64,000 nt of DNA from Mizuhopecten yessoensis (Eukaryota), in NCBI RefSeq assembly GCF_002113885.1, contig NW_018407797.1:2775-66774 (forward strand). Direction: 5' to 3'. Below are positions 57,001 to 63,000 of the stretch, one piece after another; within the stretch, counting starts at the first letter, position 1; every line of letters starts with the position of its first letter. The position numbers were made by a program.

Positions 57001-60000
57001 CCTGTCACTACAGGGAGAGCTATGGACACCATTTGAAACAGGAAAGAGAATAGTGTGCTTCCACCCGGGATCGAACCCACAATTCCTAGGTTCCCAGTCG
57101 GACACTTTACCACTGAGCTAAAAGGAAATTCTGTCTAGCTTAAGCTAGAATGTGACTGTAATTCTATGTACAATTAAAATCTGCCACATAGTGAAACCTG
57201 TCTAATCTGACACACTGTGAGAGACAATATATATTAAACGGATTAACCTATCCAATCAGACACCCTGTAAGACACAATATACAGGTCAGATTAGGCAGAA
57301 TGTCAGGTCTTATTTGGTAGTGTTTATAAGAAATGTTATGTTTAATTAGACAATAAGTCAAAATAACAAGAGGATTAGAAATATTTTGTTGTAAAATAAA
57401 CAATTCAATGTATTATGTTGTGCAGATGTTCAAACAAATATCAACTTTTTAAACACTTTAAATAATATTCTGAAAAAAAATTATAAGAATAATAACATGA
57501 CTTTTAATGGATATCCAAACACTGTTTCATCGGAATGCCAGTTGCTACAATGGAAGTTATTATAAGCCTTTCTACTTTAGAGCAGACAATTACAGACATG
57601 TAGGTTATGTCACAAGATGTCTTTTGATTTTTTTGGGGATACCTAAATTCTGTGCATCTTATCGGAATAAATTAAAATATTTCAGATTAAAACATTTTAT
57701 AAACAAGAGGCCAAGAGGGCCTGTATCGCTTACCTGGAAATGTTAGTAAAATTGAAGTTGGAATAGCTAGATGTTGCTGGTAGTGTACATGTATTACATG
57801 GTTAGTCAGGGGTTATATTTATGGAATTGGACAAAATCCTGTCATTCCTACAGGAAAAGAAGGATTTTGAAGAATTTGCTTTGTTTCCTCTGTTGGGCCC
57901 CTTCCCTCGGCCCCTTCCCTCTGCCCCAAGGGGGGTCAGACTCACCTTTGATACAAAATCAGGTCGCCTTTATTTACCCAATGATGTTTTAGACAAAATA
58001 TGGACAAAATTCTTTTATTCCTACAGAAGAATAATTTTCAAGAATTTGCTAAATTACCTCTATTGGCCCCCACCTCTCAGGCCCCAGGGGGATCAGACAC
58101 ACCATTTACACAAAATTGATTTCCCTTCCGCATAGGTGATACTGTTCAAATTTGGTCAAAATACCTTCATCCTAACAAAAGAAAAAAGGATATTAAAGAT
58201 ATTCCTCTATATCCCTTATTTGGCCCTGCCTCTCTGCCCCCAGTGGGGTCAGTGGTTCCCCTTCACCCAAGGATACTTCATACCAAATTTGGACAAAATC
58301 CTGTCATTCCTACAGAAGGACAAGGATTTTGTAGAATTTGCTATATTTCCCCTATTGGGCCCCACCCCTATGCCCCAAGGGGGGCCACACCAAGATCAAG
58401 ATGCAAGGATGTTCCAGACTAATTTAGAATCCTTTAATCCCTACTGTAGAAGAAGGATTTTAAATGTTTCACCTCTATTTCCCCTTTTCGACCCCGCCCC
58501 TCTGCCCCCAAGGGGGTCACAACCACTGTTTTTACAAAATTGAGTCCCCTTTGCCCAAATATGCTCCAGACTAAATAAGGATAAAATCCTTTAATCCCTA
58601 TGATAGAAGAAGGATTTTAAAGGTTTTACTTCTATTTCCCCTATTCGGCCCCGCCCCACTGCCCCCAGGGGGCCCACACCCAGCGTTTATACAAAATTTA
58701 GTCCCCTTGGCCCAAAGATGCTCCAGACTAATTTAGGATCAAATTCCTTTATCCCTATGGTAGAAGACAGATTTTAAAGGTTTTACCTCTATTTCCCCTA
58801 TTCGGCCCCGCCCCACTGCCCCCAGGGGGGGCTACACCCATCGTTTATACAAAATTGTTTTCCCTTTGCCCAAGGATGCTCCAGACTAATTTAGAATAAA
58901 ATCCCTTAATCCCTACGGTAGAGGAAGGATTTTAAAGGTTTTACCTCTATTTCCCCTATTTGGCCCCAACCCACTGCCCCCAGGGGGGCCACACCCACGG
59001 TTTATACAAATTTGAGTCTCCTTGGCCTAAGGATGCTCCAGACCAAATTTAGTCAAAATCTATTTAGCCGTTCAGGACAAGTAGCATTTAAAAGGAAAAG
59101 TTGACGGACGGACGACGGTTGGACGATGGAGTCCTTCGGACCAGGTGAGCTAAAAATTACCGGTATATAACATTTGTAAACTCAAATTGTTAAAAAAGTA
59201 AAAAAAACTTACTGGTACTTATTTTACTTTTTGTAATCTCATTCAATCGGAAATTTTGTTAATACACACTTAAATAGAAGAAAGAAAATGCATCACCAGA
59301 CCAGGATTCAGACCTGGGACCTCAAAACTGTAGATACAAAATTGTAGACATCCCAACCTATACGGCCATCTGGTGACCAGCAATTAATTGACCCGGTCCA
59401 GTTTTTTCTTCATTCCTCTCACTTTTTTTCTCACCCCTAAGACAACACTATATACAACCAAGGTTTGGGTATATCCTTGTCAAGCATTCACCCAGTTCTT
59501 GAAACAAGGATTGGTCACAGGCACCAATGTAACAGCAGAGGAAAATGCACATTCAGACCGGGCTTCGAACCCAGGACCTCCAAACCCCAACTAATCCAGA
59601 CACCTGGTCACCTGTGTTTAACTCTATCCAGTTCAGTTACCAAAACTGCAAATTGAGCAGAGTCAGTACAGCCATAGTTTCACATTTTTAAAATTAGGAA
59701 CATGCAACATTTTGGATCCAAAATCTGACAAAAACTCACCTTCTTCCTGATTTTATATCTTTTGAGGAGTTTGATGAGCTCTGATGTGACATTTGCGTCA
59801 CTCTCCAACAGGAGGACAGAGTTCCCTGATACATCCGTGGAGTGGTACATTAATAGATCATACAGAACACGACCCTGTAATACAAAAATGTCATACAGAA
59901 CATGACCCTGTAATACAAAAATGTCATACAGAACACGACCCTGTTATATAAAAATGTCATACAGAACACGACCCTGTAATACAAAAATGTCATACAGAAC

Positions 60001-63000
60001 ACAACCCTGTAATACAAAAATGTCATACAGAACACGACCCTGTTATACAAAAATGTCATACAGCACAAAACCCTGTAATTCAAAAATAGCATACAGAACA
60101 TGGTCATGTAACACAAAATGTCATACAGCAAACGATAATGTAATAAAAACATGTCATAAAGAACACAACCATATAGTACATAAAGGATGTTCAATGGTTT
60201 CCAGATGAAAACATTATACATTTCATGAGTATGGCAGAAAATTAACATTTTTCACAGGTACGAAGCAGGACTGAAAATATCTGTAAAGAAAAGAGGCTCA
60301 ATGATCCTGTTTCACTGACATGTCGTTTTCATTAGAACTAGGCAAGAAGTTAATATGTTCATACAAACTTGAGACCATGATTGCCACTATATTTCTGATT
60401 GACCAGTCAATAAAATAAGACTTGGTAATGACATGAATATTTGTACCATGTTAAAGTTTGGATAAAATTGATCCATGAGATGAGAACTTAATAAAAAACA
60501 AGAGACATAAATTCAGCTTATACAAAAATAATTTTCTTTAAATTGTATACTTGTTTTGCATAAAATTCAAATTTTTAATCCAATAATATATTATTGTTAC
60601 ATATTGAGTTTACCTGTACATTGAGCATCAAAGTATACAGACTGGGAATTTTGCCTCCAACAACAGCGACATCGTTTGTGACCAGACCCTGGAGGAATGG
60701 GACCGTGTCAGGCCCCTTCAGTCTAATTATTCCACGACTCCTCAAAGGATGAACGCTCCACTTTGCCCCTATTACATCATCACTGAAATGCCTGAGAGAT
60801 TGGACTGTTACGGTTTTTAAAGATGTCAAACATTGGTGGCAGTGTTTACATTTGTAACAGGGATGAGACTGGATGGCTGCTCTCTGGGAAACGCCTTGCA
60901 AACTCCTTAGTTGTGACAGTAAACCCCTCATGTCTACAGAGCTTCATACGCACTTTAGGGAGAGAAAAAACAACTACATAGATACCTGTTAATTTAAGTA
61001 TTCAGATGGTTTCTTCAGATATTCCTTTCGACTGATATAAGCTAATCAACTATACCTACTCACATCCACTGGCCAACCCACAAGTATTTCTCACTAGAGT
61101 ACTTGTACTTCTAAGAGGTGGAGCTGCAGTTTAAATTCAATTCAGTTTAATTCAAATTTATTGATATTGCAGCATACACGCATAGAATTCAAACATTTTA
61201 ATAATTAATGTATCGTCTGAGGACCTGTTTCTGTGCAATCTTTGTGATGTCATTGTTTACTTGGTAGTGAAAGCAAACAATTTGCATAGATCTGTGAGAA
61301 TGTCAAAGAAAATTAACCAAATACCAGTAAATGAATATTACTCAAAAACACATGGAAAAGAGGCATTTCCATCACCTTTATTCTTTCAGATTCAAAACCT
61401 TAGAAATACTCACGAAAAATGTATATTTTTTCTAATACGTATACATTGTATATATATATATATATGCTACATTTCGTCATTGTCTGCTCAACAAAATCTT
61501 GTGACTGTCATTTAAAAAGTTTTGTTGTGATTAAAAATGAAGCAGATACAAAATTCAAAATTATTTAGTAAACCTTTTACAGATACTCTTTCATCTTTTT
61601 GTACCGTAGCAGTATTTTTTTATTTACAGTTAATATATAAAACGTGTGCTATAAAAAGACAGGCACAGAAATTGGTCACATTATAGTGGTGTTCAATGTC
61701 GAAGAGGATATTGAATAAGTGATCATTGTAGAGTAATAAAGGAACTGATTGCAAAATGACTTCACAGTTAAAATTAAAAGCTAAACATTGTTGATAAACA
61801 ATGTAAAGCAACTAGTTGCTTAATTTTGCTCCTCTTCGTTTATTCGGCAAATTTCACATTAAAGGCTCAGAAACGAGTCACCTGAAGCTACGTACAATCA
61901 AACTAATGTCATGAATAAGCCAATCTGGCGCACTGTGGGTAGACAGATATAAACTAAAAAGCTAAACAGTAAATGCTTGACACATTATATTAATTTACTT
62001 CATAACGTCAGTTATCTAGATTCTTACATATTCTTCATCATTTAAAATTGGAAAAAATACAAGAACGAATACCTTCGTTTTAAGGTCACACCAGTTAGCT
62101 TGACATATAGCTCCCAGGTCGAAGAAGTTATCCAACTGCTGTAACCTTGTCAGTAACTGTTCCTATCTAGTTTCGTTTTTATAAAGGGCGATAACTGTGA
62201 TGCAACATTACTCTCTTAAAAATACAGATATTTTCAAACAAAAAAAAAACCAAAAAAATAAATATGAATTTTCTTGGTGCAATATTAGGGTTGATAGGAT
62301 TTAAATTCTCATTAATATTGACTTTTGTAGAACATTCAGCCCGAAACTACTACTTCCGGATTTGACACGAGCCACCGGCATTTGATATGATGACTATCGA
62401 AACTCACGGTTGAAAGTGATTACATACAGTCATCTGCGATGATTGGCAACCTAGTGCTGAGACTCATTCATTATGTGCTTTCTCTCGGGATATTTGTCAA
62501 GCATTGGATTCTCCATTTTCCATATCTTGGCTTCGCTTTCCAACAGAAAGCTTTGGCCGGAAGTCTAAGTTATGGTCTGCAAACACAGATTGAAGCTGAC
62601 GCAAGATCGTTTCAAAAGTTACCACATCATTTGGGTTTGCTAGTCTTGGAGAACGATGTCTCATTTTCAGACATTGCTAACTTAATTGTCTGGTCGATAA
62701 CCCTTGGAATTTCCTATATCAGCGTATTTGATATCAATGGTGAGGCCAGTTTTTAAGTTGTCAGGTCGTTTCGGTAACAAGACGAAAGTCGTTTCGGGAC
62801 TTTTTTCGGGTCGTTTCGGGACATGTCAAAAGTCGATTCGAGATTTTTCATGTGTTTTTAAGTTTAAACAATCGATTGGATAAAAGTTATTACAAATTAG
62901 CATAGCCTTCTCCCGTCATACAATATATACATTTAGTGATTTACCATTTCCTGATTTTAATAAAACATGAATAAATATATATAATATTCACAGACACGGA

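What the first reader, a model, noticed from the sequence alone, without database searches (positions are those of the whole stretch)
59858..60175. Minisatellite built from a splice acceptor: stacked 3' splice sites in front of IBA57 exon 2
Seen: the 33-bp unit is 16 nt of intron end plus the first 17 nt of exon 2, giving about seven AG acceptors. Because 33 is divisible by 3, the acceptors before 59907 and 59940 would add 11 or 22 in-frame residues (G[R/H]VLYDIFVLQ). Acceptors from 59973 upward read into a TAA at 59944-59946. The array could therefore switch between normal, extended and NMD-targeted transcripts of a Fe-S assembly gene. How the spliceosome skips near-identical upstream acceptors is an open question.
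Basis: partly seen in the sequence, partly recalled or inferred. Interest (0 to 1): 0.65.

Follow-up and report, generated by a model that had tools for sequence, protein, structure and literature searches.

The report
Repeated splice acceptor in scallop IBA57
A 33-base stretch spanning the intron 1/exon 2 border of the scallop IBA57 gene has been copied head to tail about ten times, leaving six look-alike splice acceptors upstream of the real one; this kind of repeat is already known from amphioxus and human genes.

Summary
Window 59858-60184 (gene on the minus strand) is a 33-bp tandem array of 9.9 copies. Its unit is the last 16 nt of intron 1 plus the first 17 nt of exon 2. There are seven in-register CAG|G acceptors: one authentic and six pseudo. 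The two nearest pseudo-acceptors would add 11 or 22 in-frame residues. The other four run into a TAA.

The window is not human. It is scallop: all six exons match the Mizuhopecten yessoensis CAF17/IBA57 protein P0001 at 100%.

The "switch" reading has no support. P0001 and nine other homologues read LN[V/A]QGRVLYDL without interruption. Three protein searches found no extended or truncated form. The pseudo-copies are decaying.

The structure belongs to a known class: "mirage" minisatellites of amphioxus, and the boundary-spanning VNTRs of human F7, 6-16 and CBS.

The authentic copy is identical to pseudo-copy 3 from -16 to +17. Choice of acceptor must therefore depend on position or on the exon body. 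That makes the locus a natural test of 3' splice-site choice. No transcript data could be examined.

The parts
59858..60184 (-). 33-bp minisatellite, 9.9 copies. Copies 0-5 match the authentic copy 0 (which equals the array consensus) at 31-33 of 33 positions, copy 6 at 28/33, copy 7 at 24/33. Copies 8-9 are decayed and shifted by 1 nt.
   Evidence: TRF; identity matrix; consensus and differences
59858..59890 (-). Copy 0: the authentic intron 1/exon 2 junction (16 nt intron + 17 nt exon). It is identical to the array consensus and, at 33/33, to copy 3.
59875..59876 (-). AG of the authentic 3' splice site; exon 2 starts at 59874.
   Evidence: Exact match of the exon 2 translation to P0001 residues 107-151
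59908..60074 (-). Six pseudo-acceptor AGs spaced 33 nt apart (A/G at 59909/08, 59942/41, 59975/74, 60008/07, 60041/40, 60074/73), with no other AG between them.
59944..59946 (-). In-frame TAA (TTACAG changed to TAACAG) that terminates any transcript spliced at 59973, 60006 or 60039. It lies 204 nt upstream of the exon 2 donor.
60043..60045 (-). Second in-frame TAA, carrying the same T>A change at -5. It terminates a transcript spliced at 60072.
59887..59903 (-). The only branch-point-like motifs that have the authentic AG as first downstream AG: ATGAC (A at 59891, 16 nt before the 3' splice-site G) and GTCAT (A at 59903, 28 nt before). Both lie in the exon-derived half of copy 1. ATGAC recurs 16 nt before each of the five pseudo-acceptors 59908-60040; before the most upstream one (60073) it lies 31 nt away.
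   Evidence: motif scan; role inferred, not shown
60075..60271 (-). 197-nt stretch of intron 1 without any AG, directly upstream of the first array acceptor (10.1 AGs expected from the gene's introns). About half of it is decayed repeat, so the positions are not independent.
59875..60613 (-). Intron 1, 739 nt, GT-AG. The array fills its last 310 nt.
60614..60931 (-). IBA57 exon 1 coding part (residues 1-106, ends ...LNVQ, phase 0).
   Evidence: 100% match to P0001
59740..59874 (-). IBA57 exon 2, 135 nt (residues 107-151, starts GRVLYD), phase 0 at both ends.
53691..56766 (-). IBA57 exons 3-6: 56766..56589, 56223..56086, 54920..54821, 53895..53691 (with stop). Together with exons 1-2 this gives 1074 nt = 357 codons + stop.

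Best explanation
This is a 'mirage'-type minisatellite. A 33-bp piece of DNA straddling the intron 1/exon 2 border of the scallop IBA57 (CAF17) gene was duplicated in tandem and amplified, by slippage or unequal exchange, in a genome region rich in minisatellites. All extra copies lie on the intron side. The copy that touches the exon body remains the working 3' splice site, and the mRNA is made from it. Each unit happens to be a complete small acceptor module: a branch-like UAUGAC, a 13-nt U-rich spacer, then CAG|G. Under the first-AG-after-the-branch-point rule, the branch point for the authentic acceptor must sit inside the exon-derived half of the neighbouring copy. The authentic copy and pseudo-copy 3 are identical from -16 to +17. 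The choice must therefore come from what lies beyond +17 (exon body, enhancers, the donor 135 nt downstream, i.e. exon definition) or from being last in the row. Stray use of the four distal pseudo-acceptors gives a premature TAA and probably nonsense-mediated decay. Stray use of the two proximal ones would insert 11 or 22 residues into an invariant motif. On this reading the array is a tolerated by-product and has no regulatory role. Shown: the anatomy, the gene, the annotated junction, and the decay of the pseudo-copies. Inferred: the branch site, exon definition as the selector, and NMD.
For: Array and register. Host gene and species: all six exons match P0001 ('putative transferase CAF17 homolog, mitochondrial [Mizuhopecten yessoensis]') exactly, and 5 of 5 introns are GT-AG. 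Pfam PF25455 scores 65.5 bits and PF01571 32.8 bits, both above cut-off. Human CAF17 structure 6qe4 matches at E 4.6e-62. The exon half is ancestral and the array derived: Q106-L113 is invariant in 10 of 10 homologues with no indel, and human CAF17 also reads NVQGRTLYD. Authentic acceptor in use: P0001 reads ...LNVQGRVLYDLLMY. No protein with the extension appeared among 11 hits of 119-2000 aa, none among 36-118 aa, and no truncated exon 1 product among 58-186 aa (1 hit, 58% identical, not this locus's product). Pseudo-copies unconstrained: the CGT codon of invariant Arg108 is changed in copies 1, 4, 6 and 7, that is 4 of 7; in copies 1, 4 and 7 the change is a CpG transition. Copy 0 equals the consensus. 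Only 1 of 10 exon borders of the gene is repeated. About 12.8 kb of the 64-kb window (16 arrays, my sum) is tandem repeat. [quoted passage not shown] There RT-PCR suggests regular splicing, and homogenisation spares the array edge as it does here. First-AG rule and its 12-15 nt exception: passages in PMC1431707 and PMC9284458. Branch-like motifs.
Against: No transcript data were examined, so 'the authentic site is the one used' rests on a database gene model whose evidence I could not see, and on conservation. The protein searches are a weak proxy, because minor or NMD-degraded isoforms are rarely assembled or predicted. A branch-to-AG distance of 16 nt is short. The most upstream pseudo-acceptor (AG 60074/73) has better-spaced branch-like motifs, at 31 and 36 nt, and a 197-nt AG-free run upstream. 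From sequence alone it looks at least as competent as the authentic site. The unit length is a multiple of three and the two exon-proximal units are open, which a functional reading would also predict. Copy number may be wrong in a draft assembly; the amphioxus authors report an aberrantly assembled mirage.
Confidence: 0.78

Rival explanations
1. The stacked acceptors are used as a regulated or allele-length-dependent switch. Acceptor choice, or repeat number, sets the ratio of normal IBA57 mRNA, +11/+22-residue isoforms and NMD targets, and so tunes Fe-S cluster assembly.
For: Six pseudo-acceptors are identical or nearly identical to the real one. The unit is in frame, the two proximal units are open and the distal ones carry a TAA. 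The upstream-most pseudo-acceptor has well-spaced branch-like motifs. In human 6-16 and CBS, the pseudo-donors nearest the exon are used constitutively (PMC1557585 introduction).
Against: No extended or truncated protein was found in three searches. The insertion would split a block that is invariant in 10 of 10 homologues and also conserved in human CAF17. The pseudo-copies have lost the invariant Arg codon in 4 of 7 cases. The two TAAs come from one and the same T>A change at -5, which looks like one neutral mutation spread by repeat turnover. Amphioxus mirages and F7 splice normally.
Confidence: 0.1
2. Assembly artefact. The array is real in kind, but its copy number or order is a product of short-read assembly; or, at the extreme, the duplication does not exist in the animal.
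For: The window has N runs and is about 20% tandem repeat. The amphioxus paper notes that the draft genome version of a mirage was 'aberrantly assembled'.
Against: The copies differ at 1-9 positions each, in a graded pattern with a decayed far edge. That is what a real, ageing array looks like and not a collapsed or stuttered one. The flanks join cleanly to exon 2 and to unique intron sequence.
Confidence: 0.08
3. Intron-sliding or intron-gain intermediate. The array is moving the exon 2 border in 33-nt steps, or will turn a pseudo-exon half into a new small exon, as proposed for amphioxus globins.
For: The model is set out in PMC3087553. The in-frame unit and open proximal copies would allow a shift without a frameshift.
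Against: No homologue shows an insertion at the junction (0 of 10). The unit has no usable donor: after CAG the unit starts GG, and the nearest GT context (GTCGTG) is a poor 5' splice site (sequence).
Confidence: 0.04

Closest known systems
Amphioxus 'mirage' minisatellites (Adh3; globin genes BflGb6 and BflGb9)
   Same: They are tandem repeats whose unit spans an exon-intron border. BflGb6 duplicates the 3' end of an intron plus the 5' part of exon 2, exactly the topology seen here. Many copies keep the AG/GT signals. RT-PCR suggests regular splicing. Inner copies are homogenised and the array edge is left out (PMC3087553, passages).
   Different: The BflGb6 and BflGb9 units are 150-160 bp (Adh3: 10-72 bp), whereas here the unit is 33 bp and in frame. 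The host is a mollusc, not a cephalochordate. Length polymorphism and somatic instability, shown for amphioxus, could not be tested here. The original Adh3 paper (PMC117041) is not held; I know it only from the reference list.
Human F7 intron 7 37-bp VNTR (also 6-16/IFI6, CBS, LMNB2, PDGF boundary minisatellites)
   Same: The first monomer spans the exon border, so the authentic splice site is followed by identical pseudo-sites that normally stay silent. The pseudo-sites are functional when the authentic one is destroyed, and position in the row decides. The site next to the exon is the one used (PMC1557585: abstract, passages, whole Discussion).
   Different: All of these are donor-side arrays, whereas here it is the acceptor side, where branch point, pyrimidine tract and first-AG scanning apply. 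For 6-16 and CBS the two nearest pseudo-donors are used constitutively; nothing comparable is shown here.
Tandem (NAGNAG-type) acceptors and AG-exclusion-zone rules
   Same: Several AGs compete for one exon, and the outcome can be an in-frame insertion. The first AG downstream of the branch point is normally taken (PMC1431707, PMC9284458, passages).
   Different: NAGNAG and close-AG competition act within about 12 nt. Here the AGs are 33 nt apart and each has its own pyrimidine tract and branch-like motif, so they are separate 3' splice-site modules.
IBA57 / CAF17 (GcvT-like mitochondrial Fe-S assembly factor)
   Same: The host gene is an orthologue: both Pfam domains are above cut-off, and the match to the human CAF17 structures is E 4.6e-62 over residues 50-355.
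   Different: Nothing unusual in the protein itself. The peculiarity lies in intron 1.

Membership tests
Mirage / boundary-spanning minisatellite | Head-to-tail repeat of minisatellite unit size | tested here: met
   Period 33, 9.9 copies, 84% matches, score 444; 0 of 100 shuffles give any match to the unit.
Mirage / boundary-spanning minisatellite | The unit contains an exon-intron border and the terminal copy is the authentic border | tested here: met
   Copy 0 is 16 nt intron + 17 nt exon 2. The border is fixed by exact match of exon 2 to P0001 residues 107-151.
Mirage / boundary-spanning minisatellite | Pseudo-copies keep the splice signal | tested here: met
   6 of 9 upstream copies keep CAG|G in register.
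Mirage / boundary-spanning minisatellite | Regular splicing at the authentic site despite the pseudo-sites | tested here: inconclusive
   Only indirect evidence: the database protein P0001 and 10 of 10 homologues have the uninterrupted junction, and no extended or truncated form turned up. No RNA data were available.
Mirage / boundary-spanning minisatellite | Length polymorphism or instability between alleles | not testable with these tools
   One haplotype only; no eukaryotic genome or read collection is on hand.
IBA57 / CAF17 | GcvT-type folate-binding domain plus CAF17 C-terminal beta-barrel | tested here: met
   PF01571 scores 32.8 bits (cut-off 25.6) and PF25455 scores 65.5 bits (cut-off 25.7) on P0001, which the window encodes exactly.
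IBA57 / CAF17 | Full-length similarity to characterised CAF17 | tested here: met
   6qe4_A E 4.6e-62, query residues 50-355.
NAGNAG / close tandem acceptors | Competing AGs within about 12 nt sharing one pyrimidine tract | tested here: not met
   AGs are exactly 33 nt apart.
Recursive (ratchet) splice site | The acceptor is directly followed by a sequence that regenerates a 5' splice site (AG|GT...) | tested here: not met
   Every unit reads CAG|GGTC. No GT follows the junction, and the shifted GTCGTG is a poor donor.

The most novel reading that the evidence does not exclude
The array works as a natural seven-way competition assay in which the winner is set by position alone. The authentic acceptor and pseudo-copy 3 are identical from -16 to +17, yet only the copy touching the exon body is used. 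That would give the acceptor-side mirror of the 'first donor wins' rule shown for F7: an exon-anchored 'last acceptor wins' rule, which runs against simple 5'-to-3' first-AG scanning from a distant branch point. As a corollary, exon-derived coding sequence (the Tyr-Asp codons UAUGAC) has been recruited as the branch site. Repeat number would also set how much pre-mRNA leaks into TAA-containing, NMD-bound transcripts, making IBA57 dosage depend on VNTR length.
Probability: 0.15. Interest if true: 0.55.

Novelty: new member of a known kind. Interest (0 to 1): 0.3.

Why it matters
The find does not change what is known about IBA57 or about minisatellites. Its value is as a model. [quoted passage not shown] Among the papers I read, only the amphioxus globin study describes an acceptor-side array. 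Here seven acceptors share the same 33 nt, the unit is short and in frame, and the outcomes can be read apart (normal, +11, +22, or TAA). A minigene series or long-read RNA-seq could test exon definition against first-AG scanning directly. It would also extend mirage-type repeats from cephalochordates and mammals to a mollusc. In five literature searches I found no mollusc case. The one mollusc paper that came up (abalone TSSK1-like) describes an ordinary intronic minisatellite.

Tried and rejected
**Higher-order repeat.**
- The TAA-bearing units are three units apart, which suggested a 99-bp period.
- Identity at lag 99 (0.939) is no better than at lag 33 (0.933) or lag 66 (0.932). Rejected.

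**RNA structure masking the pseudo-acceptors.**
- The 461-nt fold of 60280..59820 has z = -1.98, with 2 of 100 shuffles folding as well.
- It shows the same small hairpin in the well-kept units, so nothing sets the authentic site apart.

**Recursive splicing.** Rejected from the sequence, because no GT follows the junction.

**Dispersed repeat or transposon origin.** The unit occurs nowhere else in the window, and its 17-nt half is the start of a conserved coding motif. A local origin follows.

**Other mirage-like borders in the gene.** 9 of 10 border 30-mers have no second copy within 3 kb. The 39-bp array 50 nt downstream of the exon 4 donor is unrelated to that border.

**Pfam on single exons.** Only exon 1 gave a weak GCV_T hit (E 0.012). 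The other five ORF pieces gave nothing. The whole database protein was needed.

**Representative search.**
- It gave 10896 homologues at E<=0.001 and listed 150, all unnamed.
- I did not fetch or align these, because some may be vertebrate or human sequences without a name.
- Whether any distant homologue carries an insertion at the junction is therefore checked only in the 10-sequence alignment and against the PDB chains.

**Papers not held.** PMC117041 (the original mirage paper) and PMC1783408 (introns from tandem arrays) are not held.

**Structure model.**
- The AlphaFold model of P0001 has mean pLDDT 70.7 (66 for residues 101-110). It places the junction in the turn between strands 97-103 and 109-119.
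- This leaves open whether an 11-residue loop could be tolerated, so it decides nothing.
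Full report
**What is there**

Window 59858-60184 holds one tandem array of period 33, with 9.9 copies, 84% matches, no indels and TRF score 444. The consensus unit is found 5 times at up to 3 mismatches, all inside the array. None of 100 dinucleotide-preserving shuffles of the window gave a single match.

The gene lies on the minus strand:
- In the register of the splice junction, the unit reads CATTTTTGTATTACAG|GGTCGTGTTCTGTATGA.
- The authentic junction (copy 0, 59890..59858) equals the consensus of copies 0-6.
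- Copy 3 is identical to it at 33 of 33 positions. Copies 1, 4 and 5 match at 32, copy 2 at 31, copy 6 at 28 and copy 7 at 24.
- Copies 8 and 9 are decayed and out of register by one base.

In-register CAG|G acceptors would open exons at 59874 (authentic), 59907, 59940, 59973, 60006, 60039 and 60072, seven in all. The next unit up has AT in place of AG. Their coding outcomes are as follows:
- Units starting at 59907 and 59940 read GHVLYDIFVLQ and GRVLYDIFVLQ, with no stop.
- The unit starting at 59973 carries TAA at 59946-59944.
- The unit starting at 60072 carries a second TAA at 60045-60043.
- So 2 of the 6 pseudo-acceptors would give in-frame +11 or +22 residue products, and 4 of 6 a premature stop.

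The only corrections are that the decayed tail runs to 60184, and that 60614 is the last exon base, with the donor GT at 60613-60612.

**Whose gene it is**

The window is not human:
- G+C is 38% and CpG observed/expected is 0.71.
- The exon 2 ORF matches human CAF17 chains only weakly (E 0.003), with about half of the aligned residues identical.
- The best database match is [quoted passage not shown] (P0001, 357 aa).

Matching the window's reading frames to P0001 gives six exons, each an exact match:

| Exon | Coordinates (minus strand) |
|---|---|
| 1 | 60931..60614 |
| 2 | 59874..59740 |
| 3 | 56766..56589 |
| 4 | 56223..56086 |
| 5 | 54920..54821 |
| 6 | 53895..53691 (with stop) |

Together they make 1074 nt, or 357 codons plus stop. 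The five GT-AG introns are 739, 2973, 365, 1165 and 925 nt long.

P0001 carries the CAF17 C-terminal beta-barrel domain (PF25455, 65.5 bits) and the GcvT folate-binding domain (PF01571, 32.8 bits), both above cut-off. It matches the human CAF17 structure 6qe4 at E 4.6e-62. So the host is the scallop IBA57 orthologue.

I searched the gene exon by exon and built no joined model of my own. The extended and truncated isoforms were therefore never assembled, searched or folded. Whole-protein steps used the database record P0001. The N runs of the window were left as they are.

**Which half came first**

The exon half of the unit encodes G107-R108-V109-L110-Y111-D112. In an alignment of P0001 with nine homologues (four named molluscs and five unnamed records), Q106 through L113 is invariant in 10 of 10, and no sequence has an indel at the Q106|G107 junction. 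Human CAF17 reads NVQGRTLYD at the same place. The coding half is therefore ancestral, and the array was copied from the junction.

The pseudo-copies behave as unconstrained DNA:
- The CGT codon of the invariant Arg108 is changed in copies 1, 4, 6 and 7, that is 4 of 7.
- In copies 1, 4 and 7 the change is a CpG transition.
- Copy 0 has no change at all.
- The two TAAs arise from the same T>A change at -5.

Identity falls off toward the far edge of the array. This is the pattern of inner homogenisation with the edge left out that the amphioxus authors describe. A suspected 99-bp higher-order period is not supported.

**Is the authentic acceptor the one used?**

I could not look at RNA. The indirect evidence all points to 59874:
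- P0001 reads ...LNVQGRVLYDLLMY.
- A search with the open frame that includes the two in-frame units found 11 longer proteins, none with the insertion.
- The same query among proteins of 36-118 aa found nothing.
- A search with exon 1 among proteins of 58-186 aa was meant to catch products truncated at the TAAs. It found one protein, 58% identical, so not this locus's product.

These are weak tests, because minor or degraded isoforms are seldom assembled.

**How it probably works**

Inside the array the AGs are exactly 33 nt apart with none between. Upstream of the first one there is no AG for 197 nt, where 10.1 would be expected from the gene's introns. About half of that stretch is decayed repeat.

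According to the passages I read in PMC1431707 and PMC9284458, the 3' splice site is normally the first AG downstream of the branch point. AGs closer than about 12-15 nt to the branch can be bypassed.

For the authentic AG (59876/75) to be that first AG, the branch must lie downstream of the AG at 59909/08. That places it inside the exon-derived half of copy 1. The branch-like motifs there are ATGAC (A at 59891, 16 nt before the splice-site G) and GTCAT (A at 59903, 28 nt before; the CpG>CpA change private to copy 1). ATGAC recurs 16 nt before each of the five pseudo-acceptors at 59908-60040. So each unit looks like a small self-sufficient acceptor module: branch-like UAUGAC, U-rich spacer, CAG|G. 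That may be why this particular piece could expand without killing the gene. This part is inference.

Because copy 0 and copy 3 are identical from -16 to +17, nothing in the core signal can tell them apart. The discriminating information must lie beyond +17, where the exon continues TCTATTAATG... while the repeats continue with a pyrimidine tract. Alternatively it lies simply in being the copy attached to the exon body and to the donor 135 nt downstream. I take exon definition as the most likely selector.

A transcript spliced at 59973 or further upstream would carry a stop 204 nt before the next exon junction. By the usual 50-55 nt rule (recalled, not from a call) it would be an NMD target.

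From sequence alone the upstream-most pseudo-acceptor does not look weak. It has branch-like motifs at 31 and 36 nt. I therefore hold the "silent pseudo-sites" claim at moderate confidence only.

A fold of the region shows the same small hairpin in the well-kept units and nothing specific to the authentic site (z = -1.98). A model of P0001 (mean pLDDT 70.7) places the junction in the turn between strands 97-103 and 109-119. That leaves open whether an inserted loop would be tolerated.

**What is known**

The class is already described.
[quoted passage not shown] Many copies keep AG/GT signals, RT-PCR suggests regular splicing, alleles differ in length, and a draft assembly got one wrong. The term goes back to the Adh3 locus (Canestro et al. 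2002), which I saw only in the reference list; the paper is not held.
- **Human, donor side.** The F7 intron 7 37-bp VNTR starts with a monomer spanning the exon 7 border. Its identical pseudo-donors are functional but silent, and position decides (PMC1557585; abstract, whole Discussion). The same paper lists 6-16, CBS, LMNB2 and PDGF as further cases, with the two nearest pseudo-donors used in 6-16 and CBS.
- **Human paralogues.** PMC2812944 notes that variable internal repeats at an exon-intron boundary can form new introns (passages).
- **Molluscs.** Five searches turned up no mollusc case. The one mollusc paper that surfaced describes an ordinary intronic minisatellite.

**Verdict**

The proposed switch has no support, and the question it raises belongs to a known class of repeats. 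I file this as a new member of that class: an acceptor-side, in-frame, 33-bp mirage in a scallop Fe-S assembly gene. It is of modest interest as a natural substrate for testing how a 3' splice site is chosen among identical copies.

The following stayed unchecked:
- transcripts of this locus;
- allele lengths;
- the orthologous introns of other scallops (no eukaryotic genome DNA on hand; metagenome and viral collections closed);
- the amphioxus supplementary alignments (supplements closed);
- the 150 unnamed representatives, which I did not fetch because some may be vertebrate or human records without a name.

Noticed in passing
window 60075-60271 (minus strand): A 197-nt stretch of intron 1 with no AG lies directly upstream of the first array acceptor (10.1 AGs expected from the gene's introns). 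Any branch point in it would, by first-AG scanning, feed the TAA-bearing outermost pseudo-acceptor. About half of the stretch is decayed repeat.
   Followed up: partly
window 62394-62756 (+): This open frame matches human NUS1 (the dehydrodolichyl diphosphate synthase subunit) at E 4.5e-12. IBA57 and NUS1 therefore sit head to head, with about 1.5 kb between the IBA57 start codon and this exon.
   Followed up: partly
window 55574-56035: A 39-bp array of 11.8 copies lies in IBA57 intron 4 and ends about 50 nt downstream of the exon 4 donor. The donor 30-mer has no extra copy, so this is an ordinary intronic minisatellite, not a second mirage.
   Followed up: yes
window 58404-59052: A 157-bp tandem repeat of 4.2 copies and 85% matches lies in IBA57 intron 2. 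Its units have a G+C-rich core (CCCCGCCCCACTGCCCCCAGGGGGG). Origin not examined.
   Followed up: no
window 5296-5821 (+): A 29-bp array and a 63-bp array have units that each contain a consensus donor-like GGTGAGT. The 63-bp array runs up to the N stretch at 5822, which I left untouched. A coding-looking open frame lies at 4882-5085. Whether this is a donor-side repeat of another gene was not tested.
   Followed up: no
whole window: Sixteen separate tandem arrays with TRF score >=100 cover about 12.8 kb of 64 kb (my sum). They include 36 bp x 76 copies (27856-30591), 55 bp x 62 copies (46259-49769) and a 98%-identical 151-bp x 3.9 array (52150-52734). The region is very prone to minisatellites.
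   Followed up: partly
window 53685-53693 (minus strand): The IBA57 stop codon overlaps a polyadenylation hexamer (TGAAATAAAG), which suggests a very short 3' UTR or a first of several poly(A) sites.
   Followed up: no
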